Shown here: one piece after another, positions 1 to 12,065 of the stretch
How positions within the stretch are numbered: the stretch's first letter is position 1
Layout of the letters: every line of letters begins with the position of its first letter
Virus record (IMG/VR): IMGVR_UViG_2579778856_000001
Source of the DNA: a virus
Lineage: Duplodnaviria; Heunggongvirae; Uroviricota; Caudoviricetes
DNA length: 12,065 nt
Reading direction: 5' to 3' (one strand)
Notes under the pieces: model-generated
Databases searched by the model: none
Told to the model about the DNA's origin: nothing
Seen by the model: only the letters and a program-made list of their open reading frames with translations
Position numbers and translations under genes: made by a program

Positions 1-156
1 CCTGAGCCATTTGAAAATAACATTATCATTGACGCCATTTTCACGTGCAATCTGTGCAACACAAGCTCCAGGTTGTGATGCCAGTTCCACCATACGAAGT
101 TTGAATTCATTCGAATAGTTTTTACGAGGTTCTTTTCGCCAGTCCTGTAATTCCAT
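1..156 (-). CDS. IS transposase accessory protein (OrfA/TnpA-type helix-turn-helix), N-terminal 52 codons, partial at window edge
   Basis: Reverse-complement translation from ATG at 156-154: MELQDWRKEPRKNYSNEFKLRMVELASQPGACVAQIARENGVNDNVIFKWLR. The Y-S-x-EFK...PGA-x-VAQIAR-x-x-GV-N-x-N-x-x-F-x-W pattern is typical of IS3/IS66-family first ORFs. In-frame stop (plus-strand tta at 193-195) bounds it upstream. Absent from the ORF track because it is truncated and under 60 aa. Confidence 0.6.
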   Translation of the reverse strand, partial: MELQDWRKEPRKNYSNEFKLRMVELASQPGACVAQIARENGVNDNVIFKWLR

Positions 157-241
157 ACTTAGATGTCCGTCTATATCAGATGGGCGTCTAAGTTACCAAT
201 TCTCGTCTGATGGCTACATACGGCGGTCAGTTTACGCTTAC
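1..241 (-). mobile_element. Partial insertion sequence, inner end only (element continues beyond window start); IS66-like or IS3-like
   Basis: Minus-strand transposase accessory ORF starts at 156 and runs off the window. Read on the minus strand from 241 the sequence begins GTAAGCG, which matches the 5'-GTAA start I recall for IS66-family terminal repeats; an alternative IS3-like TGACCGCC end lies at 229. Boundary not proven. Confidence 0.45.
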
Positions 242-395
242 GTCCCTTCTGGTCAAAATGGACGAAGAAATGCTCTGCTTCTTCGACAGCAACGGGCGAA
301 CCACCATGCCCCGTAAAGCTTTCTCCCTGCGTACTGGCGTAACCCGCCGCCAGCTGTTTCCAGACGCCATTTACTTCATTGAACGGGAGTTCTGA
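210..395 (+). CDS. Short ORF (61 aa), stop overlaps the RBS of the RadC-like gene; possibly the 3' remnant of a gene disrupted by the upstream IS
   Basis: ATG at 210, stop TGA 393-395, one nucleotide before the RadC ATG at 397. Reading frame is open from 192 and passes through the putative IS end (229-241). No recognisable domain. Confidence 0.3.
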   Translation: MATYGGQFTLTSLLVKMDEEMLCFFDSNGRTTMPRKAFSLRTGVTRRQLFPDAIYFIEREF

Positions 396-396
396 C

Positions 397-849
397 ATGA
401 CCATGTTTACCCAGCGTGAAACCCGTATCCTTGACCAGGCGCGTGACATTATTAGCCGGTACTACCAGCGTGGGGTTCAACTCTGTTCCCCTGATGATGT
501 TCGACGGTGCGTGATGGTTGAGCTGGCACCGCTTGAACATGAAGAGTTTGGCATCATCCTACTCGATAATCATAATCAGCTGCTGCACCGCGAAATCCTG
601 TTCAGGGGTACGCTAAACTCGGTCAGCGTTCACCCCCGTGAAGTTATTAAGCGTGTGCTGAAACATAACGCCGCCGCCGTCATCCTTGTCCATAATCACC
701 CCAGCGGCGAGCCTGAACCCAGCCGGTGTGACATCCAGTTGACCAAAAAGCTTCAGGAGCTGCTGGAAATACTGGATGTGCGGTTACTTGATCACTTTAT
801 CGTGGCAGGAACTGAAACGGTGTCGATGGCTGAGCGAGGACTGGTGTGA
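397..849 (+). CDS. RadC-like JAB/MPN-domain protein (UPF0758; YeeS/YfjY/YkfG-like)
   Basis: 150 aa from ATG 397 with SD GGGAG at 385-389 (the track's 379 start is a TTG extension). Contains the JAMM signature HNHPSGEPEPSRCD (H-x-H-x7-S-x2-D) with an upstream Glu. Size and motif match the RadC-like proteins of E. coli cryptic prophage islands. Confidence 0.85.
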   Translation: MTMFTQRETRILDQARDIISRYYQRGVQLCSPDDVRRCVMVELAPLEHEEFGIILLDNHNQLLHREILFRGTLNSVSVHPREVIKRVLKHNAAAVILVHNHPSGEPEPSRCDIQLTKKLQELLEILDVRLLDHFIVAGTETVSMAERGLV

Positions 850-895
850 TGCTGAAAGTTACTTGGTTTAATGTACGTTATTGCGGGTTACGCGC

Positions 896-1825
896 ATGAG
901 CAGGACAGCGTTGCGTCAGGTCGTGCCGGTGGTGCAAACCACCGTGTTCGATGCGTATATTGTCGGTCTGGCCCCCTCGGGACGGCGAGGTATCACCAGC
1001 CTGTTAAACCGCAGCGCCAGCATACTTAAACACGGTGCGGATGCAGCAGACTATCCGTGGGAACAACTTAACTACGCCGCCGTTGCCAAAGTGCGCGCGG
1101 CACTGCTGGATGACGGTTACGCCGTGTCATCGGTCAACATGGCGCTGTCAGCACTCCGGGGCGTAGCGCAGACGGCCTTTAACCTCAATTACATGGATGC
1201 CGAAACGCTGGCACGTATCCGGTCAGTTAAGCGCGTGAGCGGCGATGTCCAGCGCAAGGGAAGGGCGCTGGGCAGGCAGGAAATCCGGGTACTGATTCAG
1301 GCTGCAAAACAGCATCCGCAATCTGTACGGCGCTGTCGCGATGTCGCCATTGTGCTGATGCTTTGCGGAACGGGCCTGCGGGCCGGGGAACTGGTTAAAC
1401 TTGAGCGCCGGGACTATGACAACGGCATCCTGACGGTGAGGCAAGGGAAGGGGCGTAAATACCGTGAAATTCACGTGGCGGATGCGGTGGACAAGGCTAT
1501 TCGTGCGTGGCTGAAAGTTGGCGCAGACGAGGCTGACAGTGCGTTGTTTAGGCGAATTCAGCGCAGTGGTAAGGTCGCAAGCCAACCGCTGACTACGACC
1601 GGGTTAACGGGTATCCTGGCTGAGTTACAGCAAACGGCAGGTATAGCACGTTTTACCCCGCATGATATGCGGCGCACCTTCATCACCCGTTTGCTGGAGC
1701 AGGGCGTGGATATCAATACCGTCCGCCAGTTGGCAGGCCACAGCGACATATCCACGACGACGCGCTATGACTGTCGTGGTGATACTATGAAGATCAGTGC
1801 CAGCAAGCGCATCAGATGTTTTTAG
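896..1825 (+). CDS. Tyrosine-type site-specific recombinase/integrase (XerC/D-like, short form, 309 aa)
   Basis: Complete catalytic signature in order: R in GLRAGEL, K in RQGKGRKYREIHV, H-x-x-R in HDMRRTF, H in AGHSD, Y in TTRYD. ATG 896 preferred over the track's TTG at 881. Stop TAG 1823-1825. Confidence 0.85.
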   Translation: MSRTALRQVVPVVQTTVFDAYIVGLAPSGRRGITSLLNRSASILKHGADAADYPWEQLNYAAVAKVRAALLDDGYAVSSVNMALSALRGVAQTAFNLNYMDAETLARIRSVKRVSGDVQRKGRALGRQEIRVLIQAAKQHPQSVRRCRDVAIVLMLCGTGLRAGELVKLERRDYDNGILTVRQGKGRKYREIHVADAVDKAIRAWLKVGADEADSALFRRIQRSGKVASQPLTTTGLTGILAELQQTAGIARFTPHDMRRTFITRLLEQGVDINTVRQLAGHSDISTTTRYDCRGDTMKISASKRIRCF

Positions 1826-2426
1826 CAGTTGAGGCGTTGCCAGACTCGGTTTCAGTTTCATCTTCAGCACTCAACCGCGCGTACTTTTGATTCTGGATGT
1901 TAATTTGTGCATTGATATTTTCAGGCTGAAGCATCCACGCAACATCCTCACGCGCCCATTCTTTACCGTCAGAGAGTCGTTTTAACCGGGGTTTCCATAT
2001 TCCATACTCATTAAGTTTTTCTGCTACCGAAGCATATTTCTCACGATCTGACTCCCCCGTATGAAGCTTGTCAAAACGACCTTTTACAAGCTGGTAAACA
2101 GTATAGATTTCCAGTGCCTTAGGGGACCTGGCCGGGACTATCATGGGGTGTTCCTCCGGCCTATAAATCCCGTTTGGCTCTCCCTCATTGAGCAGGTCAT
2201 TAAACATGTGGTTCACGCAGGCACTCAGCACATCTGCCGCTTTCTCCGCAGCGAATTTATCCGGGCTAAAACCCGCTCCCGTCAGTTTCCGGGCAATCAG
2301 TGCCAGTTTTTGCCGGGTATCCCGTCCCAGATAAAGCTTCTTCTCCAGAAATTCAAAGACCTCGTTACTGCTTTTCCGTTCCCGGTGGCATCTGGCGTCA
2401 GCCTTGTTGCTTTGGTTACCAATCAT
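1812..2426 (-). CDS. Hypothetical protein (204 aa), unknown function, divergent from alpA
   Basis: Long minus-strand ORF. Second ATG (2426-2424) is preceded by a perfect SD GGAGGTG (plus 2429-2435), so start MIGNQSNK... is preferred over the ATG at 2438. 3' end overlaps the integrase 3' end by 14 bp (convergent). Acidic C-terminal tail. No motif I can assign. Confidence 0.6.
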   Translation of the reverse strand: MIGNQSNKADARCHRERKSSNEVFEFLEKKLYLGRDTRQKLALIARKLTGAGFSPDKFAAEKAADVLSACVNHMFNDLLNEGEPNGIYRPEEHPMIVPARSPKALEIYTVYQLVKGRFDKLHTGESDREKYASVAEKLNEYGIWKPRLKRLSDGKEWAREDVAWMLQPENINAQINIQNQKYARLSAEDETETESGNASTAKNI

Positions 2427-2445
2427 AGTCACCTCCATGACAGTG

Positions 2446-2457
2446 TTTTGTACAAAA
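2446..2457. promoter_or_regulatory. Perfect 12-bp palindrome TTTTGTACAAAA in the divergent promoter region; candidate operator
   Basis: Seen directly, about 10 bp upstream of the SD of the 1812-2426 gene and within the 222-bp divergent region shared with alpA. Confidence 0.3.
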
Positions 2458-2648
2458 TATCACCATTGAGCCTCAGTGAAAATTGCTTCTTTATATGACC
2501 GTTCTGGAGACAGAAATAGATGATCTCGAATGACATCCACATTAAAGATGCCCTTAACGTGCTCAACGAAGGCATCGTTGAGTGAATCCTTGCGTTTTTT
2601 GGTGGTTGTAAATAACCCGCTCCTGAAACAGCTCAAAGGAGCACAAGC

Positions 2649-2846
2649 ATGAACACCAACCGTATTTTGCGTAAAAAAGAGGTACTTCATCTGACGGGGA
2701 ACTCGTCAGCGACGTTGTACCGACTCATCTCGAAAGGATTCTTTCCTTTGTCAAAGAGGCTAACGGGCGACAATGGCCGGGCGGTAGGCTGGCTGGAGAG
2801 TGATATCAATAACTGGGTTAACAGCCGTATGCAGGCGGGAGAATGA
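2649..2846 (+). CDS. alpA: AlpA-family (Vis/excisionase-like) helix-turn-helix transcriptional regulator
   Basis: 65 aa, SD AAGGAG at 2636-2641. RILRKKEVLHLTG-x-S-x-ATLYRLI...FP...G-x-RAVGWLESDINNWV aligns with the recalled E. coli CP4-57 AlpA (RILRLPAVIQKTGMARATIYDWL...FPKKRMLGVKSVGWIEAEIDEWL). Confidence 0.8.
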   Translation: MNTNRILRKKEVLHLTGNSSATLYRLISKGFFPLSKRLTGDNGRAVGWLESDINNWVNSRMQAGE

Positions 2847-2847
2847 A

Positions 2848-3315
2848 ATGAAAGAGATAAAATCGAAAACCAGTTCTGCGAAAAAAACGCTGGTTCCTTG
2901 GTTCGAAACTATGGGGAAACAGGTTGGTTTATCACAAGAAACGATATCAGCAGTGTTAAAGGAGCAGCGTTTACGGATACGTAAGCTTAACTACGCATCT
3001 GCATATACAGTGTCCAATATTCTCATACAGGATTGCGGCGGGGCCGATGACATGTGGAGCAACTACGCTAAACTGGCGCTTATCCTTGAGCGTTGTAAAT
3101 ACATTCCCTGCGGGAGCAGGGCCTGTGCATATTGTTCTACCGCTCAGCAATTACATTATCAGGGGGTGGATGTAACCGGGGAATACGCTTTATATCAGTT
3201 GCCTGAGTTATTTTTAGATTTTTTAGAAACAAACGACAAAAATTCCTCTTATCATTGGGATTACAATAAGTTAGTTGAGCGGCATGAAGATGCTCAGGCG
3301 AGGTCATTCGGGTAA
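2848..3315 (+). CDS. Hypothetical protein (155 aa) with N-terminal HTH-like segment and C-terminal Cys4 cluster (C-x4-C-x4-C-x2-C)
   Basis: ATG 2848 lies 1 nt after the alpA stop (GGGAGAATGAAATG; translational coupling); the track's 2800 start overlaps alpA. Cysteines at residues 83, 88, 93, 96 (CKYIPCGSRACAYC). GC about 40-45 percent, lower than flanks. Confidence 0.6.
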   Translation: MKEIKSKTSSAKKTLVPWFETMGKQVGLSQETISAVLKEQRLRIRKLNYASAYTVSNILIQDCGGADDMWSNYAKLALILERCKYIPCGSRACAYCSTAQQLHYQGVDVTGEYALYQLPELFLDFLETNDKNSSYHWDYNKLVERHEDAQARSFG

Positions 3316-3346
3316 TAGCCATTTCTGTATGGTGAAAAACTGACAT

Positions 3347-3381
3347 ATTACCCTGCCACTGCATTTTGGTGGCAGGGTAAT
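3347..3381. promoter_or_regulatory. Perfect 13-bp inverted repeat (ATTACCCTGCCAC, 9-nt spacer, GTGGCAGGGTAAT); operator or RNA hairpin between the two Cys-cluster genes
   Basis: Seen directly, 32 bp after the upstream stop and 22 bp before the next ATG. No T-tract immediately 3' on the plus strand, so not a canonical intrinsic terminator. Contains the 12-mer CCACTGCATTTT that recurs at 4335-4346. Confidence 0.4.
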
Positions 3382-3402
3382 CAATACAGCTAGGAATATT
3401 AA

Positions 3403-4257
3403 ATGAACGATTCTTATTACTTCAGAACATCTGACCCGGATTACATTCGTCACGCACCGTCAATGCTTGAGATTTTAAGTAAAGCATTCCCCACTATTAT
3501 TACCCAGCAGGAAAGTGAGTATGAACTGCAGCGTCTTAACCATTTACTAAATAAACTGAAAGGCAGCAATCGCTGCTACAACATCATTGCTCAAAAACTA
3601 AGGCAGTGCAGAAACGGATCTCCATGCAACAGTCTTATATGCCCGCATTGCCAGCGGGAACGCATTCTGGCGCAACTGGCTATGTTGCATGTCTTGCCGG
3701 GGAATTCAGCAGAATACGTGGGAGTGGTCCTGTTTTTCAACAAGGATACGCAAACTCCGCCGCCATGGAAGAACATTGGGGCGCTCAGGGCGCAAATCGG
3801 TCGTTATAAGCAGAGGATAAGCCGGGTACTTAACCGCCTGGGGTACGCCGGTCCGGCCACAGGCACCTTCAGTATGATGCGACATATGCCTGATGGCCCA
3901 GAAGAGCGTATTTTCTGGGTTCCACAGTTGTGTTTGTTCCTGCCCAATGACAGTACGTTGATTAAGGGGCTAAAAGCGCATATGTCGCGAAGTGGTGGGG
4001 CATTCATTGATGCATCGACGCTTAACACACCAGTGATCGTGCTCAGGTATAAAGATCCCGCGAGACTGATTTCATGCGCCCTGAATCCAGTCTGGCACAC
4101 AGCAGATTACACACTGACTGATAAAGACGCTCTTGTTAAGTCAAGAATGGAGCTACTGAAAGGCCGGACACTGTTAAAAAGTCTGCTTACCCTGGACTCA
4201 CTCGGAACAGGTGTCGTTTCTTTTTCGTTTGGGCAACCCCCAGGGAAAGTGCACTGA
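3403..4257 (+). CDS. Hypothetical protein (284 aa) with zinc-ribbon-like Cys4 cluster (C-x5-C-x4-C-x2-C)
   Basis: ATG 3403 with AGGA 7 nt upstream. Cys cluster CRNGSPCNSLICPHC at residues 69-83 (nt 3607-3651). No family assignable by eye. Confidence 0.65.
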   Translation: MNDSYYFRTSDPDYIRHAPSMLEILSKAFPTIITQQESEYELQRLNHLLNKLKGSNRCYNIIAQKLRQCRNGSPCNSLICPHCQRERILAQLAMLHVLPGNSAEYVGVVLFFNKDTQTPPPWKNIGALRAQIGRYKQRISRVLNRLGYAGPATGTFSMMRHMPDGPEERIFWVPQLCLFLPNDSTLIKGLKAHMSRSGGAFIDASTLNTPVIVLRYKDPARLISCALNPVWHTADYTLTDKDALVKSRMELLKGRTLLKSLLTLDSLGTGVVSFSFGQPPGKVH

Positions 4258-4269
4258 TTTACCGGTAAT

Positions 4270-4370
4270 GCAGCAACTGCAATGCACTTTTGCTGTTGAT
4301 TAAATTGCAGTGGAACGACGAATAACAGCGGCAACCACTGCATTTTCGTTGTTGTAAAACTGCAAAGCTT
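4270..4370. repeat. Iteron-like repeat cluster: four copies of ACTGCA(A/T) (one inverted), an 8-bp perfect inverted repeat, and ATGCACTTT twice
   Basis: ACTGCAA at 4276-4282, inverted copy at 4305-4311, ACTGCAT at 4337-4343, ACTGCAA at 4359-4365. IR TGCAGTGG 4306-4313 / CCACTGCA 4335-4342. ATGCACTTT at 4282-4290 and again at 4393-4401. Confidence 0.4.
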
Positions 4371-4519
4371 GCCAGTGATTTTGATGGCGCTGATGCACTT
4401 TAACATTCCAACTGTCTCGATTTTAACGCAACCGTCTGTTTTCTGCAGGGGCTCACGGATGCCTCTGCACACCCGATCCTTACCATCAACTGACGAGTTA
4501 GCGCATCTGTGAGGGCTTT

Positions 4520-4833
4520 CTGTGTTTCTGTCAGTGAATATTCTACACACAATGGGGGGAGCGGTCAGCGAGCACCATTGCCATTGAGCGCAACGGAGAG
4601 CTTGGGGACATGCAGCACTACGGAGGCTTCATCTCCTTCTCATGTCATTAAACGATACGGCGAACGAGCGCAGCGAGTGAGGGAAGGCGTCAGCCTGAAC
4701 AGGGGGAAAGATTTGCGACCGGAGTGGAGCAAATCATGGGCGGAGCCCATCCTCGCGACTGGGGTTTTGACTTTCGAATTGCCCAGCGTTGAGTTTGGTT
4801 AATGTAGTGAGACGAGGATGCTGAGAGGGGACC
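4520..4833 (+). other. Purine/G-rich non-coding segment; candidate structured 5' leader or small RNA upstream of the polymerase-like gene
   Basis: No ATG-initiated ORF of plausible codon usage. The only track ORF here (4509-4802) starts with GTG and is rich in rare codons (AGG, CGA, GGG). Runs such as GGGGGGAGCGG, GAGGGAAGGCG, ACAGGGGGAAAG. Tight hairpin ATGGGC-GGA-GCCCAT at 4736-4750. Confidence 0.25.
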
Positions 4834-6231
4834 GTGAGTACTGAAAAGGATTATCCAGTGAAGATCCCTAAGTGGGTTTATGACCGTATTACTGAAATAA
4901 CGGATTATGTCGTGGGGGATACGCAATGGGCTGTTACCCGGCGGCAGACAGTACGGTGGTTCCTGGCTCACATATGGCTGGAAACAGACGATGATGGCTG
5001 GACTATATGCACTGTCCGGGATATCCGTAGCAGCTATGCCAGTCTCCTGGGACAGTGTGAAATTAGTTACCAGGGGGAGTGCTTTATGTCCACGCTAACT
5101 GATTTCCTGCCGACACTTTCGGATATTGAATTTCGTGCAGGAAAAGCGAGCAAAGACCCGGAAAAGCGTAGAGCCAGTGCATGGCGGTTCAACCCCCTGC
5201 TGCCTGTGTGTGATGAGTCTGCCAGGGGTAAGTTAAATCTGGTTGACTTGGATACTGGTGAGTCTGTTAGTTTTAGAGCTCTGCTTCAGGGGAACGGGAA
5301 AGCTCCTGGGCATGCGATAGATGTAGAGAAACGCCAGACGGCCCTAAAACAAACGGAAAAGGACTTCTTGGCCAAAGTTGGGCGGGGGCGCATGAGTATA
5401 CAGTTTGTGAAGGAATTGCGTAGCCGTGAGCCGGATCACTATTACCGCGCAGGAATACGCAGCCTTAACCATCTCTACAATGGCAGGATTGAGGGACAAT
5501 ATGTCACTTACGACCATCATTATCGTCTGACGTTTGGAGGGCGGTATTATGATCAAGCTTTCCAGAATCTGCCCAATGAGTTCAAAGCTAAATTTCGGAC
5601 CGGGTTACTCAACTATGACATCGAAGCGTGCAATCTGGCCTGTCTGAACCATCTGTTCAGACAGTATGACGTCGATTATCGTGTGAAGTCATCGATATAT
5701 AAAACCATGATGGAACATACCGGGCTGACCCGTAAACAGTGCAAACAGATGGTCCATACCACCACCTACAGAATTGGGCGTGTGACTATTGGTGTTAATG
5801 ATGGCCTTGGGGCAAAAGTGTATGGATGGTGCGGTAACAGCAAAAAAAAGGCGCTAAAGATTTTGCGTTGGTGGAACCGTTATATCAGTCCATTGAAATC
5901 TGCGCTTGAGTCATTGCTGGAACGTGTGCATGGCGCACACCGCAAGAGTTGTTCATCACCGCGTAACTATCACAGGTACGCTAATGAAGTCGGATTAATA
6001 CTGGATCTTAATAGTGAGGTGTATCAGCGTGAAAAGACTCACCATCATCAATATGCGCGGAATAAGGCACTGTTGGCGTTTATGATCTGTGGTGTGGAGC
6101 AGGCGTATATCCGTGAGGTTGTCAGTATGAACCCTGGTCGTGTCTGCATGCTGGATCATGATGGGGTAGTGGCAACGGGCGCGCTTTCACTACCGGACTG
6201 GCGTGGTTTCACGATGAAAGTGAAGGACTAG
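4834..6231 (+). CDS. Uncharacterised protein (465 aa) with family-A / T7-like single-subunit polymerase motifs A, B (O-helix) and C; putative minimal right-hand polymerase
   Basis: GTG start at 4834 with SD GAGAGGGGA immediately upstream and in-frame stop at 4822-4824. Motif A-like NYDIEACNLACLNHL (res 260-274; compare Pol I DYSQIELRIMAHL). O-helix-like RKQCKQMVHTTTY (R300, K304, H308, Y312; compare Pol I R754-K758-F762-Y766). Motif C-like CMLDHDGVV (res 438-446; compare Pol I MQVHDELV). A-to-B and B-to-C spacing (about 42 and 137 aa) resembles Klenow and T7 DNA polymerase. Motif-level inference only. Confidence 0.65.
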   Translation: MSTEKDYPVKIPKWVYDRITEITDYVVGDTQWAVTRRQTVRWFLAHIWLETDDDGWTICTVRDIRSSYASLLGQCEISYQGECFMSTLTDFLPTLSDIEFRAGKASKDPEKRRASAWRFNPLLPVCDESARGKLNLVDLDTGESVSFRALLQGNGKAPGHAIDVEKRQTALKQTEKDFLAKVGRGRMSIQFVKELRSREPDHYYRAGIRSLNHLYNGRIEGQYVTYDHHYRLTFGGRYYDQAFQNLPNEFKAKFRTGLLNYDIEACNLACLNHLFRQYDVDYRVKSSIYKTMMEHTGLTRKQCKQMVHTTTYRIGRVTIGVNDGLGAKVYGWCGNSKKKALKILRWWNRYISPLKSALESLLERVHGAHRKSCSSPRNYHRYANEVGLILDLNSEVYQREKTHHHQYARNKALLAFMICGVEQAYIREVVSMNPGRVCMLDHDGVVATGALSLPDWRGFTMKVKD

Positions 6232-6297
6232 CTTACTTTCTTGAATTTAACTATCTGCGATCTCTGATAAGGGCGTATTACGTTGTCAATCATAATG

Positions 6298-6328
6298 GGA
6301 TATGCGCATTGGAACGATGTGCATATCC
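6298..6328. repeat. 11-bp inverted repeat / hairpin (GGATATGCGCA, 9-nt spacer, TGTGCATATCC; one G-T position)
   Basis: Seen directly, 67 bp after the polymerase-like gene stop and 27 bp before the IS30-type terminal repeat. No downstream T-tract. Confidence 0.3.
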
Positions 6329-6355
6329 AGTAAGTGATCCATGTCCGCTTTGAGC

Positions 6356-7090
6356 TGTGAGTTCAACGGGTCGATGCAACGCTGTCCCTAATCAAGGGGG
6401 ACGTTGCCATGAAACGAAGAACTCGTATTAACTACACGCCAGAGCAAAAGGTGATTATTTGGGACAGATATAAGCAAGGTGATTCCCTGCATGATATCCC
6501 CCAGAATGTTCGACAGATTTCACTCTACTATCATGCCTACAATCCACCAGGCCGGTGGCTACCGTCCTCCCGTGCGAAAGCGGCACCGGTTAGCGTTTTC
6601 GCTTGATGAAAAAGAGGAGATATCCAGAGGACTGGTAGCAAAACGCATCATCAGGGACATCGCTGCTAAATTATCAATAGCTCCCTCAACGATTAGCCGC
6701 GAGATCAGGAGGCACGGCGGTGCAAAACAATACCGTGCAGCAAAAGCCGATCCTGCTGCGTGGGAAAATGCTCTGAGACCAAAACCTTGCAAGCTAATTG
6801 AAAGCCCCACATTGTGTAAAATCATTGCAGAGAAGATGCATCAGGACTGGTCGCCGGAACAAATTGGCGGTTGGCTAAAACGCTGTTATCCCGATAATCA
6901 GGAAATGCATGTGTCACATGAAATGATTTATAAAACGCTTTTTATACCAACCCGGGGAGCTTTAAAAAAAGAGCTGCAGCAATGCCTCAGAAGCGGAAGA
7001 GTAGTGCGTAGATCCAAAACCTCATCACTTAAAGTAAACAGAGATACATTCTGGTCACGAATGCCCGGTTGTTCGTGCTTTGCGTTTTAA
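6356..7090 (+). mobile_element. IS30-family insertion sequence remnant (left inverted repeat plus 5' part of the transposase gene; 3' half deleted)
   Basis: Left end TGTGAGTTCAACGGGTCGATGCAAC at 6356-6380 resembles the recalled IS30 IRL (TGTAGATTCAATTGGTCAACGCAAC). Transposase ORF begins 53 bp inside. Element ends abruptly; no right repeat before the membrane protein gene. Confidence 0.7.
6409..7090 (+). pseudogene. IS30-family transposase, frameshifted near 6498-6502 and truncated (N-terminal HTH region only, DDE domain missing)
   Basis: Track ORFs 6409-6606 and 6479-7090 are consecutive pieces of one IS30-like transposase in two frames. MKRRTRINYTPEQKVIIWDRYKQGDSLHDI then, in the other frame, FDRFHSTIMP...RKRHRLAFSLDEKEEISRGL...APSTISREIRRHGG...KPCKL...WSPEQIGGWL...EMIYKTLF. 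Frame switch coincides with a C5 run. Product about 200 aa versus about 380 for intact IS30 transposase. Confidence 0.75.
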
Positions 7091-7154
7091 TCGCATTTTA
7101 CAGTTTCTGCCTGCGTGCAGAGGTTGATGGTATTTTCTGAAAAAGCGGCTCGCT

Positions 7155-7182
7155 TTGCTAATGCATATGGCACAAATACAAC
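7155..7182 (+). promoter_or_regulatory. Candidate sigma70-type promoter (TTGCTA, 16-bp spacer, TACAAC) upstream of the membrane protein gene
   Basis: Hexamers at 7155-7160 and 7177-7182, about 45 bp upstream of ATG 7228. Matched by eye; weak -10. Confidence 0.2.
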
Positions 7183-7227
7183 AGTTTGTGTCATTCTGAC
7201 CCATCTTTATACCGCGACGGTGGAAAC

Positions 7228-9798
7228 ATGGATGAGCTGCTAACCCTTGGCTGCATTGCTTTATTCTTCGCACTGGTGGTGGTTCCCATCCTCGCGATTA
7301 TCGCGCTCAGCCGCAGCACGGCTGTTCGTTCTGAGCTGGCGACCCTGCGTCGCCGGGTGGAGGTGCTTGAGCAGCGCGGTGTGACTGAAGCACCCGCCAC
7401 AGTGGTAACAACTGTGCCGCAGAGTGTTTCGCAGATGGTTGTGCCTGTTGAAACGTCTTCGCCTGCGGTTAACATCGTGCTGTCGGAGCCTGTGGCTGAT
7501 GTCACGCCTGAGTCCGTTGACCCCTGGCGTCCACAACCGAAGCCGCAAAACGAGGCGCTACCCACACCAGCGGTCGAACAATCTTCCGCTTTTGGTGGGG
7601 TGATGTCGTCCCTGGTGCGCTGGTTTATGCAGGGCAACCCGCTGGCAAAGCTGGGTATTCTGCTTCTCTTCCTTGGCTTCTCCTTCCTGCTGCGTTATAC
7701 GGTTGAACACTCCCTGTTCCCGCTTGAGCTACGTCTGGTGGCGACTTCGCTGTTTGCGATTGCCCTGCTGGTAGTGGGCTGGCGATTGCGGCATAAACAG
7801 CTGGTTTATGCGCTGATCATACAGGGTGGAGCTACGGGGACGCTCTATCTCACCGTTTTTGGCGCATTCTGGCTCTGGCAGATGCTGCCGATGACGCTGG
7901 CGTTTGCATTACTGGTGGCGATTTGCGCGGCGAGCGTGGGACTGGCGATTATGCAAAAAGCGCTCAGCCTCGCGATGCTGGCAAGTATCGGTGGCTATCT
8001 GGCACCGCTGTTGCTTTCCACCGGCGGCGGTAGTCATGTGGCGCTCTTCTCTTTCTACCTTCTGCTTTCCGTCGGTATTCTCGCCATCAGCATCTGGCAA
8101 CACTGGCGCGAGCTTAATCTGCTTGGCCTGTTATTTACCTTTGGTATCGGCGGTCTTTGGGGACTCGACGGCTATCGATCAGAGTATTACCTGAGCAGTC
8201 AGCTTTTCCTGATAGCCAATACGATCATTTTTGGTGTGCTGAGCGTGGCGCTATCGCTACGAGCACAGGAGAAAGGTAAGCAGATTATTGATGGCGTGCT
8301 GTTGTTTGCATCGCCGCTGGTCGGTTTTGGCATGCAGTACGCCATAACCCGGCATATGGAATATGGTCCGGCGCTTAGCGCGCTGGGTTACGGCGGTTTC
8401 TATCTGGCGTTAGCATGGCTTGCATTGCGTCGCTATCCCTCTTTGGGGAGGCCGCTGGTGCTGGCGGCGCTGGCGCTGGGTGGGGCATTTACCACGCTCG
8501 CTATCCCACTGGCGCTTTCGGCCCGCTGGACGGCGATGGCCTGGGCGCTGGAAGGTCTCGGCATCCTCTGGCTGGGCGTGCAACAGCAGCAGCGGCGTAT
8601 GAGCTATAGCGGCACTGCGCTGCTGGTGCTGGCAGTGTGCAGCGCGCTGTGGGCGCAGATGAACGGGATGAGCGCGCTTTCTCTGGTGCTAATCTTTGCC
8701 GTACTCAGCCTCAGCTGGCTGGCTGCCGCCTGGCTGTGGCGCAATATTCAGTTGCAGGGTAGTTGGGTTCTGTTGGCTGGCGGTTTGATCTTCTGGATAA
8801 TCGCGCTCATTGGGGCATCGCAACTGGTGCTGAAAAAGGACTCGCTGGTGCTGTCTGGCGTGCTGGCGTTAATGGCGATATCGGTCTGGGGCTGGCGGAT
8901 TGTCTCTGGTCGTCTGGCCTGGTGGGAGCTGGATGTCAGCAAATGGTTGCTGTGGCCGACGATGCTGGTGATGCTGCTGTCTCAAATTTCACAACATGAG
9001 ATTTTTGCTGCGGGCTGGCAGAATCTGGCCTGGTGTCTGGCGTTACCCGCTGCGGGGGCATTGCTCTGGCGTGATGCTGAGACGTTGCCGCCGCGCCTCT
9101 CCAGACTGGCGCACCTTTCACTCTTCTGGATGATTCTGCTCGCGCTGGCGGCGGAGCTATTCTGGTTTGCGCAAGATCTGCCATGGGGCATGGCGGCGTG
9201 GGGCTCCGGCCTGATGATGGCCGCGGGGGGCCTGCTCATCTTTCTCGTTCATGAGGCGGTTCATCGTCAGCTATGGCCATTCCGAAGCTGGCCCGCACTC
9301 TACGCTTCTCAGGCGATGATACCGGTAGCTGCGGTATTGGTTGTTCTGCTAGTACTGACGAATTTGCAGGATGGCGTAGTTTATCGCCAGACCTGGCTGC
9401 CGCTGGTGAATCCACTGGAGGAGGGGGCCGCTTTTGCGCTACTGGGACTCATTGTATTTTATCGCGTTTCGCAGCGCTTTTTCCCGGTGCAGATTTCGGT
9501 ATGCCGTCCCTGGCCGCTCATTGCACTGCTGGCGCTTAGCTTCTGGTGGCTGAATGGCATCCTGCTGCGCGCATTGGCCTGGTACGGCGAAGTGCCCTGG
9601 AGCGCGGAAACACTGTGGCATTCGCGGCTGATTCAGACCTGTTTTGCCCTGTTCTGGATGCTGGCGGCATTAGTGGTGATGCTACGTGCGACCCGGCGTT
9701 GCTCACGTCGCGAATGGCTTTGTGGATCCGTATTGTTAGGGATTGTTATTGTGAAACTGATGTTGGTAGACAGTGCGCGTGGCGGCGGCCTGGCATGA
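7228..9798 (+). CDS. Large polytopic inner-membrane protein (857 aa); N-terminal TM helix, coiled-coil, Pro/Val/Thr-rich linker, then about 20 predicted TM helices; family unassigned
   Basis: ATG 7228 preceded by GGTGGA (the track's 7186 start is a TTG extension). Long hydrophobic stretches rich in L/A/G/W separated by short polar loops. GC well above the island genes (sampled 60-bp stretch about 68 percent). Stop TGA 9796-9798. Confidence 0.8.
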   Translation: MDELLTLGCIALFFALVVVPILAIIALSRSTAVRSELATLRRRVEVLEQRGVTEAPATVVTTVPQSVSQMVVPVETSSPAVNIVLSEPVADVTPESVDPWRPQPKPQNEALPTPAVEQSSAFGGVMSSLVRWFMQGNPLAKLGILLLFLGFSFLLRYTVEHSLFPLELRLVATSLFAIALLVVGWRLRHKQLVYALIIQGGATGTLYLTVFGAFWLWQMLPMTLAFALLVAICAASVGLAIMQKALSLAMLASIGGYLAPLLLSTGGGSHVALFSFYLLLSVGILAISIWQHWRELNLLGLLFTFGIGGLWGLDGYRSEYYLSSQLFLIANTIIFGVLSVALSLRAQEKGKQIIDGVLLFASPLVGFGMQYAITRHMEYGPALSALGYGGFYLALAWLALRRYPSLGRPLVLAALALGGAFTTLAIPLALSARWTAMAWALEGLGILWLGVQQQQRRMSYSGTALLVLAVCSALWAQMNGMSALSLVLIFAVLSLSWLAAAWLWRNIQLQGSWVLLAGGLIFWIIALIGASQLVLKKDSLVLSGVLALMAISVWGWRIVSGRLAWWELDVSKWLLWPTMLVMLLSQISQHEIFAAGWQNLAWCLALPAAGALLWRDAETLPPRLSRLAHLSLFWMILLALAAELFWFAQDLPWGMAAWGSGLMMAAGGLLIFLVHEAVHRQLWPFRSWPALYASQAMIPVAAVLVVLLVLTNLQDGVVYRQTWLPLVNPLEEGAAFALLGLIVFYRVSQRFFPVQISVCRPWPLIALLALSFWWLNGILLRALAWYGEVPWSAETLWHSRLIQTCFALFWMLAALVVMLRATRRCSRREWLCGSVLLGIVIVKLMLVDSARGGGLA

Positions 9799-9991
9799 TC
9801 AGACATGAGATAAATGAAGGGGGATCCGTGAGATAAATAACGAATTGGAGTGGGTTAACATGGGTTCTGGTGAACAGAACTGAAATTCTTTTCCGCTATA
9901 CGATAGATAAGTCGGGCATTGAAATCATCCTTCCTGGCAACTTAGAATCGAGTTTGCTGAAACATGACCCGCAACAAAAAGGATGATTCCA

Positions 9992-10153
9992 ATGACTACT
10001 CAAAACAATAAGCATGATAGCCTGGATTACTCAGAAAAGCCCAAAAGCAAGCACATCGTGACGTTCGAGCGCGATTCCGGTAGAAAAGGAGAATCGTCTT
10101 CCTCTGCCAATAAAACCACTATGCCGGCAGCCCCTGCCCCAGGGAAAAAATAA
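9992..10153 (+). CDS. Possible small hydrophilic protein (53 aa), K/S-rich; not in the ORF track because under 60 aa
   Basis: ATG 9992 with AAGGA 9 nt upstream. MTTQNNKHDSLDYSEKPKSKHIVTFERDSGRKGESSSSANKTTMPAAPAPGKK, stop TAA 10151-10153. Alternative in-frame ATG at 9983. Confidence 0.3.
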   Translation: MTTQNNKHDSLDYSEKPKSKHIVTFERDSGRKGESSSSANKTTMPAAPAPGKK

Positions 10154-10156
10154 ACA

Positions 10157-10789
10157 TCATTCATCGTTCGTTGCACGAACGCGCCTGATCTCCACTCTGG
10201 CAATCTGATCTGCTGGAATATAGGTTGCCAGAGCTCCCCAGTACTTATCAACCACGCCTTTATACTCTTCCCATTCGTTACTGCCTGAAGGGCTGCTGTG
10301 CGTGACGTAAAGAACCATATCGCCTTTATTCCCCAGGGTAAACGGACCGTTAGGCCACTCTTCAAAGTTCCCTGGCAGCCGTGACATCATACCGGAACCA
10401 TCGCGAAGAATCACTCTGACCTCGGTAACGCTGAAGCCTGTTTGATCAAACATTGCCTGCCATGCTGAGCTGGTATCGTCAGACCATGAAATATCATTAT
10501 TCCACAGTAATCTGTACATCCATTTGCGACCGTACCTGCGCCACCACGCACCGCATGTAAGGGCACACAGAAGTGCTGGTGGTGTTGCCAGCCAGGCATT
10601 CAGACCTGCCCACATAACAGCCTGGTAAGCCATCATTGCTGTCAGGCCAAAAATCAGCGAAGAAAAAGTCACCTCAATGGGCTTGTGGTGATCCTTCAGT
10701 CCCACATTCGCAATAAAATACCCAATATAGCCACTGGTCAGGGTCACCAGTGTTGCCCATGGCAGATTTAACAACGAAACGTCAAACAT
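10157..10789 (-). CDS. Membrane protein (210 aa): three predicted N-terminal TM helices plus a soluble C-terminal domain; unknown function
   Basis: Start at the ATG for MFDVSLLNLPW... (plus 10787-10789) preceded by SD GGGAG. The track's longer start is a TTG lying inside the upstream terminator hairpin. Sits directly downstream of the mor terminator. Confidence 0.65.
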   Translation of the reverse strand: MFDVSLLNLPWATLVTLTSGYIGYFIANVGLKDHHKPIEVTFSSLIFGLTAMMAYQAVMWAGLNAWLATPPALLCALTCGAWWRRYGRKWMYRLLWNNDISWSDDTSSAWQAMFDQTGFSVTEVRVILRDGSGMMSRLPGNFEEWPNGPFTLGNKGDMVLYVTHSSPSGSNEWEEYKGVVDKYWGALATYIPADQIARVEIRRVRATNDE

Positions 10790-10827
10790 ATTTTCTCCCT
10801 GCATCCTGAATACTAAAGAGAGAGCAT

Positions 10828-10861
10828 AAAAAAAGCACGGTAAGGGGTCTACCGTGCTTTT
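10828..10861 (-). terminator. Rho-independent terminator (bidirectional hairpin) downstream of mor
   Basis: 9-bp stem AGCACGGTA / TACCGTGCT (10834-10842 and 10850-10858) with 7-nt loop, flanked by an A7 run at 10828-10834 (a U7 tract on the minus-strand transcript) and TTTT at 10858-10861 on the plus strand. Confidence 0.6.
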
Positions 10862-10903
10862 ATACAATAAGGAGATTTTTGAAAGGACTTTAACAAGCAG
10901 GAA

Positions 10904-11302
10904 TTATCTGGATTTGTTAACGTCTTTCGTCTCCTCTGGCAGATCTTCATCAAACAACCTGCCCTGCATCCGATCCAGTTCTTCTTTTCTGACCCGCTTA
11001 ACCACGCTGTAGACCCACTGAAGCGAAACACCAAACTTGCGGGCCAGTTCGTGGTGGTTGCGTCCGTTAAACTCCCTGAAGATTTCCCGGTCGCGCTGAC
11101 TGACCTTCCATACCATGCCCATCGGGAAATAAACGTTTTGCCCGCCCCAGACCTGCATCATTCGGTTCGCGACGGCCTGACCAATCTGGTCGGCAACTTC
11201 GGGCTCAATATCAATAATCTCGCGAACGGTCTCAGAGGTATGCTGTGCCAGTTCCACCAGGAGTTCCGGCCCCTTACTTCGAAACTGATTCAGGTCGCTC
11301 AT
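10904..11302 (-). CDS. mor: Mor-family transcriptional activator (phage Mu middle operon regulator-like)
   Basis: 132 aa. WGGQNVYFPMG...RDREIFREFNGRNHHELARKFGVSLQWVYSVVKRVR aligns with the recalled Mu Mor core (GGGQVYIPRG...RD...FNGRN...EL...YGV...VY...R). Confidence 0.75.
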   Translation of the reverse strand: MSDLNQFRSKGPELLVELAQHTSETVREIIDIEPEVADQIGQAVANRMMQVWGGQNVYFPMGMVWKVSQRDREIFREFNGRNHHELARKFGVSLQWVYSVVKRVRKEELDRMQGRLFDEDLPEETKDVNKSR

Positions 11303-11726
11303 GTTTGACTCCCGCAGCTCTGCGCTGCCACTTCTTCAGTTTCTCAATAACACTGCTTGCCTGTTCAGTACTGAGCCAGCGCAGGGCGCTGATGCCCGTT
11401 TCCCGCTTGATCCACCGCGCTAATGCATTTTCTGAACGGTCACGAACAATGCCGGCAGCAGCCATTTCAAGCCATAGCGCACGGATTTTCCTGGACTGCG
11501 GATGGTTATCCAGCGGTAAACCGGAGCTGGCTTTTCCGGCAGGCTTAACGCGAAAGCCTTTCCTTTTCATGGATTCCAGCACGCAGTTTAGTTGTGTGGT
11601 ATCCATTCCTTTGGTTGAGGCTTTACCGGTCAGCCCCTGTAACATCTGGCGGTAGGTGTCTTCATCCATACCCAGTTCATTACGGGCAATATGAATGAGC
11701 TGGATAAGACGTTGTTTAGTCATCAT
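11274..11726 (-). CDS. Mu gp16/GemA-like protein (DUF1018-type), upstream partner of mor
   Basis: RLIQLIHIARNELGMDEDTYRQMLQGLTGKAS...SRKIRALW pattern as in Mu-like prophage gp16/GemA proteins. 3' end overlaps the mor start by 29 bp. Start chosen at the ATGATG pair preceded by AAAGGAG rather than the track's 11765. My reading here was off by one base relative to the track; track frame used. Confidence 0.6.
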   Translation of the reverse strand: MMTKQRLIQLIHIARNELGMDEDTYRQMLQGLTGKASTKGMDTTQLNCVLESMKRKGFRVKPAGKASSGLPLDNHPQSRKIRALWLEMAAAGIVRDRSENALARWIKRETGISALRWLSTEQASSVIEKLKKWQRRAAGVKHERPESVSK

Positions 11727-11931: not shown

Positions 11932-12065
11932 TCTGAATATCCCCCCAACTGATATGAATATTACGGGCAGCAATGACAGGGTCGTTATTCCACCATGCAC
12001 CTGACATGTATTTTTCAACCTGTTCGCGTCCGGCAATAACACCAATTGTGATCCCCGGCCTGACG

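What the first reader, a model, noticed from the sequence alone, without database searches (positions are those of the whole stretch)
896..2846. Short intact tyrosine recombinase plus AlpA-type regulator: a possible excision/integration module with no obvious att site
The recombinase has every catalytic residue and is XerC/D-sized (309 aa) rather than a roughly 400-aa P4-type integrase. AlpA-family proteins act as excisionase-like directionality factors. Together they suggest the cargo downstream is, or was, an excisable element. The recombinase sits only 46 bp downstream of the RadC-like gene and overlaps convergently by 14 bp with an unknown gene, so element boundaries are unclear and no tRNA or direct repeat is visible.
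Basis: partly seen in the sequence, partly recalled or inferred. Interest (0 to 1): 0.45.

Follow-up and report, generated by a model that had tools for sequence, protein, structure and literature searches.

The report
Internal recombinase of a ychF defence island
The short recombinase and the AlpA regulator are real and intact, but they sit in the middle of a 28.6-kb mobile island whose ends and true integrase lie outside the window, so the short enzyme is a conserved accessory recombinase of unknown target rather than the enzyme that inserts the island.

Summary

- **Location.** The window is the centre of a 28.6-kb Escherichia coli island inserted in the 3' end of ychF.
- **Island ends.** An empty-site genome shows a 12-bp direct repeat, TTAGACGTTGAA. 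It lies about 12.9 kb left of the window start and at about +15.7 kb.
- **True integrase.** A separate 391-aa P4/IntA-type integrase with arm-type repeats sits beside the right repeat.
- **The 309-aa recombinase.** It is always internal. It is the last gene of a roughly 4.9-kb core that is 88-94% identical across enterobacterial genera. It always follows RadC, even in relatives only 41-55% identical, and it is under purifying selection (dN/dS about 0.12). Its predicted fold is a complete two-domain Cre/Xer-like recombinase.
- **AlpA.** It heads an operon of replication-like genes that ends in an unannotated family-A-polymerase-like protein.
- **Most likely roles (inferred).** AlpA switches on excision and replication. 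The big integrase excises the island. The short recombinase processes the excised circle, by dimer resolution or cyclisation.

No target site for the short recombinase was found. A second-integrase role and a relaxase role both remain open.

The parts
1..241 (-). End of an ISEc23 (IS66-family) insertion that splits the conserved core gene 'c6' and separates radC and the recombinase from their native upstream operon.
   Evidence: Window position 1 equals L001 position 20001. The annotation shows the IS66 tnpA, tnpB and transposase genes at L001 17740-20156. Similarity to all other island copies starts at window 242.
242..395 (+). 3' remnant of core gene c6, a 179-aa conserved hypothetical protein that is intact in other islands.
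   Evidence: The translation of ORF 210-395 ends ...RKAFSLRTGVTRRQLFPDAIYFIEREF, which matches the C-terminus of L003 c6.
397..849 (+). RadC-like JAB-domain protein. It always lies immediately upstream of the recombinase, or one gene away.
   Evidence: PF04002, E = 6.7e-46. It is 44% identical to LfgB/YfjY of CP4-57. Adjacency is kept in relatives whose recombinases are 41-62% identical.
850..895 (.). 46-bp radC-recombinase spacer with no terminator or promoter match. It is the target of a site-specific IS110-family insertion in two other island copies, and a candidate (unproven) site for the recombinase.
   Evidence: Promoter and terminator scan. IS110 sits at window-equivalent position 876 in L003 and L117.
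896..1825 (+). 309-aa simple tyrosine recombinase with two domains, Cre/Xer-like, and no arm-binding domain.
   Evidence: Family and sequence evidence. AlphaFold2 mean pLDDT 94.5. Foldseek matches full-length Cre (TM 0.70), IntI4, the lambda Int core and XerA. dN/dS about 0.12.
1812..2438 (-). Gene 'X', 204-208 aa with no family hit. It is convergent with the recombinase and divergent from alpA. Other islands carry diverged alternatives at this position (c48, c56, c18+c10). It is a possible repressor.
   Evidence: The shared C-terminal motif W-x-(R/E)-(E/D)-D-(V/I) was seen by eye in the sequences.
2439..2648 (.). Divergent intergenic region between X and alpA, presumed to be the control region.
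   Evidence: It is conserved among islands with the c10-type X gene. No promoter was called above chance.
2649..2846 (+). AlpA-family helix-turn-helix protein, the first gene of the alpA-c14-c15 operon.
   Evidence: PF05930, E = 2.6e-12. PHROG category 'excisionase and transcriptional regulator'. It is 34% identical to K-12 AlpA. The next ATG is 1 bp after its stop codon.
2848..3315 (+). c14, a 155-aa hypothetical protein specific to this replication-module variant.
   Evidence: It has no family hit.
3403..4257 (+). c15, a zinc-finger protein homologous to HUH rolling-circle Rep-like proteins of sister islands. In this lineage it has lost the HUH motif and the putative catalytic Tyr.
   Evidence: Alignment A7 shows CxxxxxCxSxxCPxC conserved. 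The sequence 'WLPHFHLI' in L003, L018 and L022 corresponds to 'WVPQLCLF' here, and SY has become SC.
4258..4833 (.). 576-bp non-coding stretch with several hairpins upstream of c3. It is a possible origin region. In the other c3 subtype the equivalent stretch is AT-rich and iteron-like.
   Evidence: Inverted repeats I3, I5 and I8. Alignment A5.
4834..6231 (+). c3, a 465-aa protein conserved in every island of the family. It appears to be a divergent minimal family-A-polymerase-like protein.
6409..7090 (+). Frameshifted, truncated IS30-family transposase remnant that marks the start of the right-hand cargo region.
   Evidence: HTH_38 hit. RefSeq annotates a frameshifted partial transposase.
7228..9795 (+). 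DUF2339 membrane-protein gene (island cargo). In this genome it is cut at about 9795 by a Mu-like prophage.

Best explanation
**What it is.** Positions 896-2846 are the conserved centre of a CP4-57-like integrative island, 28.6 kb in ST131 reference genomes, inserted in the 3' end of ychF.

**Shown by the evidence.**
- The island is bounded by a 12-bp direct repeat, TTAGACGTTGAA. A 391-aa P4/IntA-type integrase and its arm-type GTACTCA repeats lie at the right end. None of these is in the window.
- The 309-aa protein is a catalytically complete, two-domain Cre/Xer-like recombinase.
- It is internal in every island examined, it always follows RadC, and it is under purifying selection.
- AlpA is the first gene of an operon of replication-like genes, which is followed by a family-A-polymerase-like gene.

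**Inferred mechanism.**
- AlpA is the switch. As in CP4-57, where AlpA turns on intA, and in phage-inducible chromosomal islands (PICIs), it activates excision by the big integrase and turns on the replication operon.
- The excised circle replicates.
- The short recombinase, co-transcribed with RadC, acts on a single site inside the element. It would resolve multimers or cyclise incoming DNA, as Cre does at lox on phage P1 or ResD does at rfsF on plasmid F. It would not insert the island into the chromosome.

**Confidence by step.**

| Step | Confidence |
|---|---|
| Island ends, and the big integrase as the integration enzyme | about 0.9 |
| AlpA as excision/replication activator | about 0.6 |
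| Short recombinase as circle-processing enzyme | about 0.35 |
For: **Island ends.**
- The empty site in strain A20 reads ...GCGGAATTAGACGTTGAACAGGAAG.
- attL is at L001 7071-7082 and attR at L001 35669-35680. GTACTCA repeats lie at 7142 and 7154, and at 35488, 35520 and 35532.
- The big integrase carries Arm-DNA-bind_3, Phage_int_M and the catalytic domain. It is 37% identical to IntA of CP4-57 over its full length, E = 2e-81.
- mutS-site relatives have the same logic, with TGTAGGT repeats at both ends.

**The recombinase is internal and stably linked to its neighbours.**
- The architecture is the same in 13 loci from different genera, and in relatives whose recombinases are 55-62% identical. 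One of these is compact and has the P4-type integrase only 5 kb away.
- The radC-recombinase junction is intact in 595 of 596 E. coli genomes that carry it.

**The recombinase is functional.**
- The catalytic residues are invariant.
- dN/dS is about 0.12.
- The full Cre-like fold includes the helix after the catalytic Tyr.

**The element looks replicative.**
- Three alternative replication modules follow AlpA: an uncharacterised 367-410-aa protein with no family hit, a zinc-finger HUH Rep-like protein, and DUF927.
- c3 is PolA-like, and an iteron-like region lies upstream of it in one subtype.

**Other supporting points.**
- The nearest homologues outside the family, at 35-38% identity, are on plasmids of Enterobacterales and cyanobacteria.
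- By analogy, replicative islands and pipolins are thought to carry a second recombinase to handle circular intermediates (PMC11551731).
Against: - No target site was found. No inverted repeat is conserved next to the gene across diverged members.
- Excision, replication and resolution are all unobserved.
- In this window's lineage the Rep-like c15 has lost its HUH and Tyr motifs, so replication may depend on c3 or may be defective.
- Relatives at 35-40% identity often lie near the ends of viral contigs. Ten of 31 are within 1.5 kb of an end, so members of the wider family probably do act as integrases.
- ISEc23 here, and IS110 in two other copies, cut the gene off from its upstream operon without loss of the island. 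The function is therefore dispensable for maintenance in the chromosome.
Confidence: 0.45

Rival explanations
1. The 309-aa enzyme is a second integrase with its own small attP in the radC-recombinase spacer. The order RadC | recombinase - X(-) - alpA - rep is a circular permutation of a CP4-57-type island. The island could then open at either of two attachment sites, or the recombinase is the ancestral integrase, now redundant.
For: - CP4-57 ends with antirestriction-RadC-DUF987-toxin/antitoxin-attR and begins with attL-intA-yfjH(-)-alpA-yfjI-yfjJ. This is the same order around the junction as here.
- The 57%-identity variant has a YeeU antitoxin and DUF905 between radC and the recombinase.
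- Relatives at 35-40% identity cluster at the ends of viral contigs.
- A site-specific IS110 element hits the spacer at the same point in two islands.
Against: - No genome shows the permuted, recombinase-at-the-edge form. This holds for 595 of 596 E. coli junctions, and for 13 loci in other genera plus 6 more distant relatives.
- The spacer is only 46 bp and has no clear inverted repeat.
- The recombinase has no detectable relationship to IntA beyond the catalytic motif.
Confidence: 0.2
2. The 309-aa protein is a MOB_M-type relaxase, related to tyrosine recombinases like MpsA of SGI1, MobK or TcpM. It would nick an origin of transfer (oriT) in the island so that a helper conjugative element can mobilise it.
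For: - A 2026 preprint reports that MOB_M relaxases are abundant in chromosomes, are often annotated as integrases, and in 96% of cases lie near a true integrase (10.64898/2026.01.13.699239).
- RadC, ArdC and ParE neighbours in relatives resemble plasmid leading-region genes.
- The island has no other known transfer function.
Against: - The three characterised MOB_M proteins lack the core-binding domain (PMC8152469). This protein has one, and it superposes over about 300 residues on DNA-clamping Cre, IntI4 and lambda Int.
- It aligns to XerC over model positions 30-274 of 295.
- No MpsB-like partner gene and no GC-rich inverted-repeat oriT lie upstream.
Confidence: 0.1
3. One reading: the recombinase and AlpA are the integrase/excisionase pair of an element made of the DNA downstream of them, with att sites that are simply hard to see.
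For: The order integrase-type gene, then opposite-strand gene, then alpA is the classic head of an island. AlpA-family proteins do act as directionality factors (established knowledge).
Against: - The upstream genes co-travel with the recombinase at 88-94% nucleotide identity across genera.
- The real repeats enclose both sides.
- A dedicated IntA-type integrase sits at the end of the island.
Confidence: 0.05
4. The recombinase drives module or cargo exchange in an integron-like way, at a site overlapping its own 3' end. This would explain why nucleotide similarity between islands stops just after the catalytic Tyr codon.
For: Similarity ends at window 1758-1818 in 7 of 11 loci, and at least four different downstream modules follow.
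Against: - The breakpoints are spread over about 60 bp, not at one position.
- They fall in the only stretch between two convergent genes where a junction can survive selection.
- The C-terminal peptide motif is kept across the different modules.
- What follows is an analogous backbone gene, not cargo.
- The integron-integrase models score far below their cut-offs.
Confidence: 0.07

Closest known systems
CP4-57 cryptic prophage/island of E. coli K-12 (IntA, AlpA, LfgB/YfjY)
   Same: - A P4-type integrase beside a short direct repeat at the 3' end of a host gene. The ychF integrase is 37% identical to IntA.
- An AlpA homologue (34% identity) followed by replication-like genes.
- A RadC-like gene (44% identity).
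- Defence cargo.
- An opposite-strand gene between the integrase-type gene and alpA.
   Different: - An extra 309-aa simple recombinase, unrelated to IntA, sits where intA would sit in the circular map.
- The integrase/att module lies elsewhere and the target is ychF or mutS, not ssrA.
- YfjH, YfjI and YfjJ have no detectable homologues here.
- A PolA-like gene is present.
Pipolins of Enterobacterales (piPolB-encoding bimodular defence islands; PMC11551731)
   Same: - Two tyrosine recombinases: one large, at the att site, and a second internal one followed by a small helix-turn-helix or excisionase-like gene and then a DNA polymerase gene.
- A DUF2787 gene that is 53% identical to the one in an E. 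coli pipolin found here (L118).
- A conserved core plus exchangeable defence cargo.
   Different: - The polymerase is PolA-like (c3), not a primer-independent PolB.
- The internal recombinase of the pipolin is 378 aa and only generically similar (24% identity, E = 2e-7).
- No other core gene is shared.
- The pipolin's att site is tRNA-Leu.
Cre/loxP of phage P1, and ResD/rfsF or Xer/cer-type plasmid multimer-resolution systems
   Same: Size, two-domain architecture without an arm-binding domain, and a full catalytic set. The predicted fold superposes on Cre at TM 0.70. The nearest outside homologues are plasmid-borne.
   Different: No lox-, dif- or cer-like site was identified. Sequence identity to Cre is 17%. 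No resolution activity has been shown. It scores 128 bits against the XerC model, whose cut-off is 335.
MOB_M relaxases (MpsA of SGI1, MobK of pIGRK, TcpM of pCW3)
   Same: A tyrosine-recombinase-family protein of roughly 300 aa, inside an island that has a separate true integrase.
   Different: It has a canonical core-binding domain, which the characterised MOB_M proteins lack. No MpsB partner or oriT was recognised.
PICI and P4-like phage satellites
   Same: An integrase, with AlpA at the head of a primase- or replication-type operon. One island variant carries DUF927. They also carry defence cargo hotspots.
   Different: No PHROG hit to any capsid-redirection, packaging or Psu/Delta/Sid-type gene. 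No close relatives in IMG/VR.

Membership tests
Tyrosine recombinase superfamily, simple two-domain type (Xer/Cre-like) | Catalytic R-K-H-R-H/W plus the Tyr nucleophile | tested here: met
   R162, K185, H256, R259, H282 and Y291 align to XerC-like and XerA structures and are invariant in 60 homologues.
Tyrosine recombinase superfamily, simple two-domain type (Xer/Cre-like) | Core-binding helical domain plus catalytic domain, with no arm-binding domain | tested here: met
   The AlphaFold2 model has mean pLDDT 94.5. Foldseek aligns about 300 columns to Cre, IntI4, lambda Int(75-356) and XerA. There is no Arm-DNA-bind hit.
Tyrosine recombinase superfamily, simple two-domain type (Xer/Cre-like) | A cognate core site: two inverted arms around a 6-8-bp spacer | tested here: inconclusive
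   No inverted repeat is conserved near the gene in diverged members.
XerC/XerD chromosome-dimer resolvases | Score above the curated equivalog cut-off | tested here: not met
   XerC model: 128 bits against a cut-off of 335. XerD model: 96.9 against 329.6.
P4/IntA-type island integrase | N-terminal Arm-DNA-bind_3 (DUF4102) domain, about 400 aa | tested here: not met
   Absent from the 309-aa protein. Present in the separate 391-aa integrase at the island end.
P4/IntA-type island integrase | The gene lies next to the attachment site or direct repeat of its element | tested here: not met
   The repeats lie roughly 13-14 kb to either side of the gene: about 12.9 kb left of the window start and at about window +15.7 kb. 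The gene is internal in all loci.
Integron integrase (IntI) | Score above the family cut-off; the IntI-specific insertion | tested here: not met
   64.1 bits against a cut-off of 265, matching only the C-terminal 70 residues.
MOB_M (tyrosine-recombinase-like) relaxases | Lack of the core-binding domain, as described for MpsA, MobK and TcpM | tested here: not met
   A core-binding domain is present and confidently modelled. The criterion comes from PMC8152469.
MOB_M (tyrosine-recombinase-like) relaxases | Score of at least 84 bits with the CONJscan MOB_M profile; a functional oriT | not testable with these tools
   Neither the profile nor MpsA/MobK sequences were available. pIGRK is not in the plasmid collection and the preprint's supplements are not held.
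AlpA family (PF05930) | Pfam score above the gathering threshold | tested here: met
   46.9 bits against 21. 34% identical to K-12 AlpA, E = 2e-9.
AlpA family (PF05930) | Activates the integrase gene or acts as a directionality factor | not testable with these tools
   This is inference from CP4-57, PICI and Vibrio Vef proteins (established knowledge). No binding site was identified.
CP4-57-like integrative islands | P4-type integrase, flanking direct repeat at the 3' end of a host gene, alpA, and RadC-type distal genes | tested here: met
   The integrase and the repeats lie outside the window and were read in near-identical ST131 genomes.
Pipolins | Primer-independent family-B DNA polymerase (piPolB) | tested here: not met
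   No PolB in the island. c3 matches family-A polymerases by fold. A BLASTP comparison of c3 (both the window and L003 forms) against the proteins of an E. coli pipolin, including its piPolB, returned no match at E <= 0.1.
PICI / P4-like phage satellites | Capsid-size or packaging-redirection genes (sid/psu/delta, ppi/rpp/terS) besides int, alpA and pri-rep | tested here: not met
   No PHROG hits for any backbone gene other than the recombinase, AlpA and the Mu-repressor-like c9.

The most novel reading that the evidence does not exclude
The island belongs to an undescribed class of self-replicating integrative elements of Enterobacterales, with three defining traits. First, it encodes its own minimal family-A DNA polymerase (c3), much as pipolins encode piPolB. 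Second, the invariant RadC + Cre-like recombinase pair is its circle-processing system (cyclisation or resolution), or a second live attachment system. Third, it serves as a two-sided platform for anti-phage cargo.
Probability: 0.25. Interest if true: 0.7.

Novelty: new variant of a known kind. Interest (0 to 1): 0.5.

Why it matters
- **Prevalence.** About 11% of complete E. coli genomes carry this core (596 of 5426), including the pandemic ST131 lineage. Many other enterobacterial genera carry it too. It brings in retron, ABC-three-component, Hachiman and restriction-modification defence systems.
- **An open question.** Surveys of E. coli defence islands have flagged islands that have only integrases, or several integrases, and no known means of transfer.
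- **What this work adds.** It sorts out which of the two recombinases defines the island ends. It also shows a conserved RadC-recombinase pair and an unrecognised polymerase-like gene.
- **What that makes testable.** Specific deletions and junction PCRs can now be designed to work out how such islands excise, replicate and spread.

Tried and rejected
- **att features in the window.** tRNA, tmRNA and Rfam scans found nothing.
- **Promoters and terminators.** The scan gave no more matches than shuffled sequence, and nothing between radC and the recombinase.
- **Inverted repeats as candidate recombinase sites.**
  - A 12-nt-arm, 7-nt-spacer repeat at 6298-6328 is unique to this lineage.
  - An 11-bp inverted repeat flanking radC has both arms in only 3 loci.
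  - No repeat is shared by diverged members.
- **Clustered similarity breakpoints at the recombinase 3' end.** I considered a site-specific signal and rejected it. The breakpoints are spread over about 60 bp, in the only place where a junction can survive selection.
- **Partial E. coli match H64.** This turned out to be an IS3 plus group II intron insertion, not a recombinase-mediated deletion.
- **MOB_M comparison.** pIGRK is not in the plasmid collection and no supplements are held, so no direct sequence test was possible.
- **Phage-satellite idea.** A strict search of IMG/VR found no close relative, and the backbone genes have no PHROG hits.
- **c3 profile against PDB sequences.** No hit. 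Only the fold comparison was informative.
- **Orthology of the recombinase with the pipolin internal recombinase.** Tested on an E. coli pipolin and rejected: 24% identity, no better than to any other integrase.
- **K-12 as an empty site.** This was misleading. K-12 carries 90 bp of island-end sequence next to ychF. Strain A20 is the true empty site.
Full report
**1. Observation**

- The ORF from the ATG at 896 to the stop at 1825 encodes 309 aa. It matches Pfam Phage_integrase at E = 1.4e-31.
- It aligns to XerC, XerA and XerD models over both domains but scores far below their cut-offs, 128 bits against 335 for XerC.
- The catalytic residues R162, K185, H256, R259, H282 and Y291 align with solved Xer proteins and are invariant in 60 diverse homologues.
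- RadC ends at 849, leaving a 46-bp spacer. An unknown gene at 1812-2438 (-) overlaps the recombinase by 14 bp. AlpA (PF05930, 46.9 bits) lies at 2649-2846.
- The window holds no tRNA and no Rfam family.

**2. Where the window comes from, and where the element ends**

Window positions 1-9795 are 100% identical to E. coli ST131-type chromosomes. In strain MNCRE44 (locus L001, where window position = L001 position minus 20000) the segment lies between dhaR and ychF. The same stretch holds a retron Ec67, an ABC-three-component system and, next to ychF, a 391-aa integrase.

A search with the dhaR-side flank found genomes in which dhaR, a small ORF and ychF are contiguous. The strain A20 empty site reads ...GCGGAATTAGACGTTGAACAGGAAG. 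In L001 the same 12 bp, TTAGACGTTGAA, occur at 7071-7082 and 35669-35680.

The island is therefore 28.6 kb. Its ends are about 12.9 kb left of the window start and at about window +15.7 kb. GTACTCA repeats sit just inside both ends.

The end integrase has Arm-DNA-bind_3, Phage_int_M and the catalytic domain. It is 37% identical to IntA of CP4-57 over its full length.

Sister islands at the mutS-ygbA site have the same logic, with TGTAGGT repeats at both ends.

**3. The short recombinase is an internal backbone gene**

Thirteen loci from Lonsdalea, Cedecea, Mangrovibacter, Erwinia, Hafnia, Kluyvera and other genera share one architecture:
- three small genes and a Ner-like helix-turn-helix gene on one strand;
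- then a Mu-repressor-like gene, DUF2787, c6, RadC and the recombinase on the other strand;
- then X(-), AlpA, a replication-like module and c3.

Further points:
- The core from c4 to the recombinase is about 4.9 kb and 88-94% identical in nucleotides across genera.
- Variable defence cargo (Hachiman, type I restriction-modification, TrlF and others) lies outside this backbone on both sides.
- More distant members, with recombinases 55-62% identical, keep the same order. One is a compact element with the P4-type integrase only 5 kb upstream.
- RadC stays next to the recombinase down to 41% identity, whereas AlpA linkage is seen down to about 52%.
- In E. coli the radC-recombinase junction is intact in 595 of 596 genomes that have it.
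- The gene is 309 codons long in all ten loci compared, with dN/dS about 0.12.

**4. What kind of enzyme it is**

An AlphaFold2 model built from a 60-sequence alignment has mean pLDDT 94.5. It superposes over about 300 positions on DNA-bound Cre (TM 0.70), IntI4, the lambda Int core and XerA.

It is a complete core-binding plus catalytic recombinase, and it has the helix after the catalytic Tyr that Cre uses for subunit contacts. It has no arm-binding domain.

This matters for one rival. The characterised tyrosine-recombinase-like relaxases (MpsA, MobK, TcpM) are described as lacking the core-binding domain (PMC8152469). A recent preprint warns that many chromosomal 'second integrases' are such MOB_M relaxases. 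I could not run its profile.

**5. What lies downstream**

- AlpA's stop codon is 1 bp from the next start codon.
- Across islands, three alternative modules follow AlpA: an uncharacterised 367-410-aa protein with no family hit; c14 plus c15; or a zinc-finger HUH protein plus a DUF927 protein.
- c15 in the window is a homologue of the zinc-finger HUH proteins but has lost the HUH motif and the putative Tyr.
- Then comes c3, present in every island. It has no family or PDB sequence hit.
- In the 490-aa subtype of c3, a conserved AT-rich iteron-like region lies upstream.
- The backbone therefore looks like an AlpA-controlled replication unit.

**6. Mechanism**

*Shown:* the island ends, the identity of the end integrase, the internal position and conservation of the short recombinase, its fold and catalytic set, and the operon layout.

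*Inferred:*
- AlpA acts as the activator and directionality factor for the IntA-type integrase and the replication operon. The basis is the AlpA-IntA relationship in CP4-57 and AlpA in PICIs (established knowledge).
- The short recombinase works on the excised circle, in dimer resolution or cyclisation, like Cre/lox or plasmid ResD.

Support for the second inference is indirect:
- the element looks replicative;
- the recombinase is never at an edge;
- its nearest outside relatives (35-38% identity) are plasmid-borne;
- pipolin authors reason the same way about second recombinases.

Against it:
- no site was found;
- relatives at 35-40% identity often lie at the ends of viral contigs.

**7. Rivals**

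- **Second integrase.** The order RadC | recombinase - X(-) - alpA - rep is the circular permutation of CP4-57, which runs ...RadC-DUF987-TA-attR | attL-intA-yfjH(-)-alpA.... The 46-bp spacer could therefore be a live or relic attP. An IS110-family element sits at the same spacer position in two diverged island copies of one genome. However, no genome shows the permuted form.
- **Relaxase.** See section 4.
- **Integron-like exchange at the 3' end.** Similarity stops at window 1758-1818 in 7 of 11 loci. This is better explained by selection confining junctions to the short gap between two convergent genes.

**8. Comparison with known systems**

- The island is a CP4-57-like integrative defence island with an added simple recombinase.
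- Its logic closely parallels enterobacterial pipolins: a large integrase at att, DUF2787, and an internal recombinase followed by a small helix-turn-helix gene and a polymerase.
- I found an E. coli pipolin (L118) and compared the proteins. Only DUF2787 is clearly shared, at 53% identity. The internal recombinases are not orthologous (24% identity), and the polymerase is PolA-like rather than PolB.
- The island is not a P4 or PICI satellite by gene content.

**9. Verdict**

The finding itself is a moderately interesting accessory recombinase of unknown target. The surrounding island family, with its RadC-recombinase pair and PolA-like gene, is the more novel part. I could not find it described in the literature I searched.

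Noticed in passing
[not shown]
   Followed up: partly
window 3403-4257 (+): This zinc-finger protein is homologous to HUH Rep-like proteins of sister islands, but here the HUH motif (PHFHL became PQLCL) and the putative catalytic Tyr (SY became SC) are lost. It is still 91% conserved within its subtype.
   Followed up: partly
window 9796-12065: This is the end of a Mu-like transposable prophage (Mor at 10904-11302, gp16/GemA-like at 11274-11765, both on the - strand), inserted into the DUF2339 cargo gene. The same end abuts rfaH, phnP, yfaV, flgJ and other genes in other E. coli genomes. Mor lies unusually close (about 1.1 kb) to the element end.
   Followed up: partly
window 1-241 and 242-395: An ISEc23 (IS66 family) insertion splits core gene c6 in the ST131 lineage. 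This cuts radC and the recombinase off from the Mu-repressor-like/DUF2787 operon that precedes them in other islands.
   Followed up: partly
L003 13896-14918 and L117 7896-8918 (window-equivalent 876): The same IS110-family element sits at the identical point, 20 bp before the recombinase ATG, in two diverged island copies of one E. coli genome. The radC-recombinase spacer therefore holds a specific IS target.
   Followed up: partly
L001 14369-16527; L003 9667-11825 (upstream of the window): The conserved core contains a divergent Ner-like (HTH_35) and Mu-repressor/transposase-N-terminal-like gene pair. In some islands a Cro/C1-type helix-turn-helix gene replaces it. This looks like a Mu-style genetic switch controlling the DUF2787-c6-RadC-recombinase operon.
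   Followed up: partly
window 3347-3381: A perfect 13-nt inverted repeat with a 9-nt spacer (ATTACCCTGCCAC...GTGGCAGGGTAAT) lies between c14 and c15. It could be a terminator or a Rep nick-site hairpin.
   Followed up: no
window 6298-6328: A 12-nt-arm, 7-nt-spacer inverted repeat (GGATATGCGCAT N7 ATGTGCATATCC) has recombinase-core-site geometry. It lies just past c3, where backbone similarity ends, and is found only in this lineage.
   Followed up: partly
window 6409-7090: A frameshifted, truncated IS30-family transposase remnant lies at the backbone/cargo border.
   Followed up: no
L028 7633-7721 (K-12) versus L001 35578-35668: K-12 has, next to the ychF stop codon, 90 bp identical to the integrase-proximal end of the island. 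The true empty site (strain A20) does not. The K-12 ycgV region may therefore carry a scar of a related island.
   Followed up: partly
L017 and L111 (Klebsiella and Enterobacter plasmids): Plasmid-borne homologues of the recombinase (36-37% identity) lie directly beside defence-like genes (TIR, AAA ATPase, a 1286-aa DUF4365 protein), with no RadC or AlpA nearby.
   Followed up: no
L118 (E. coli ATCC 43886, tRNA-Leu): This is a typical E. coli pipolin: IntSXT-type integrase, DUF2787, piPolB, a small helix-turn-helix gene and a 378-aa second recombinase. Its DUF2787 protein is 53% identical to the one in the ychF/mutS islands, and that is the only clearly shared gene.
   Followed up: yes
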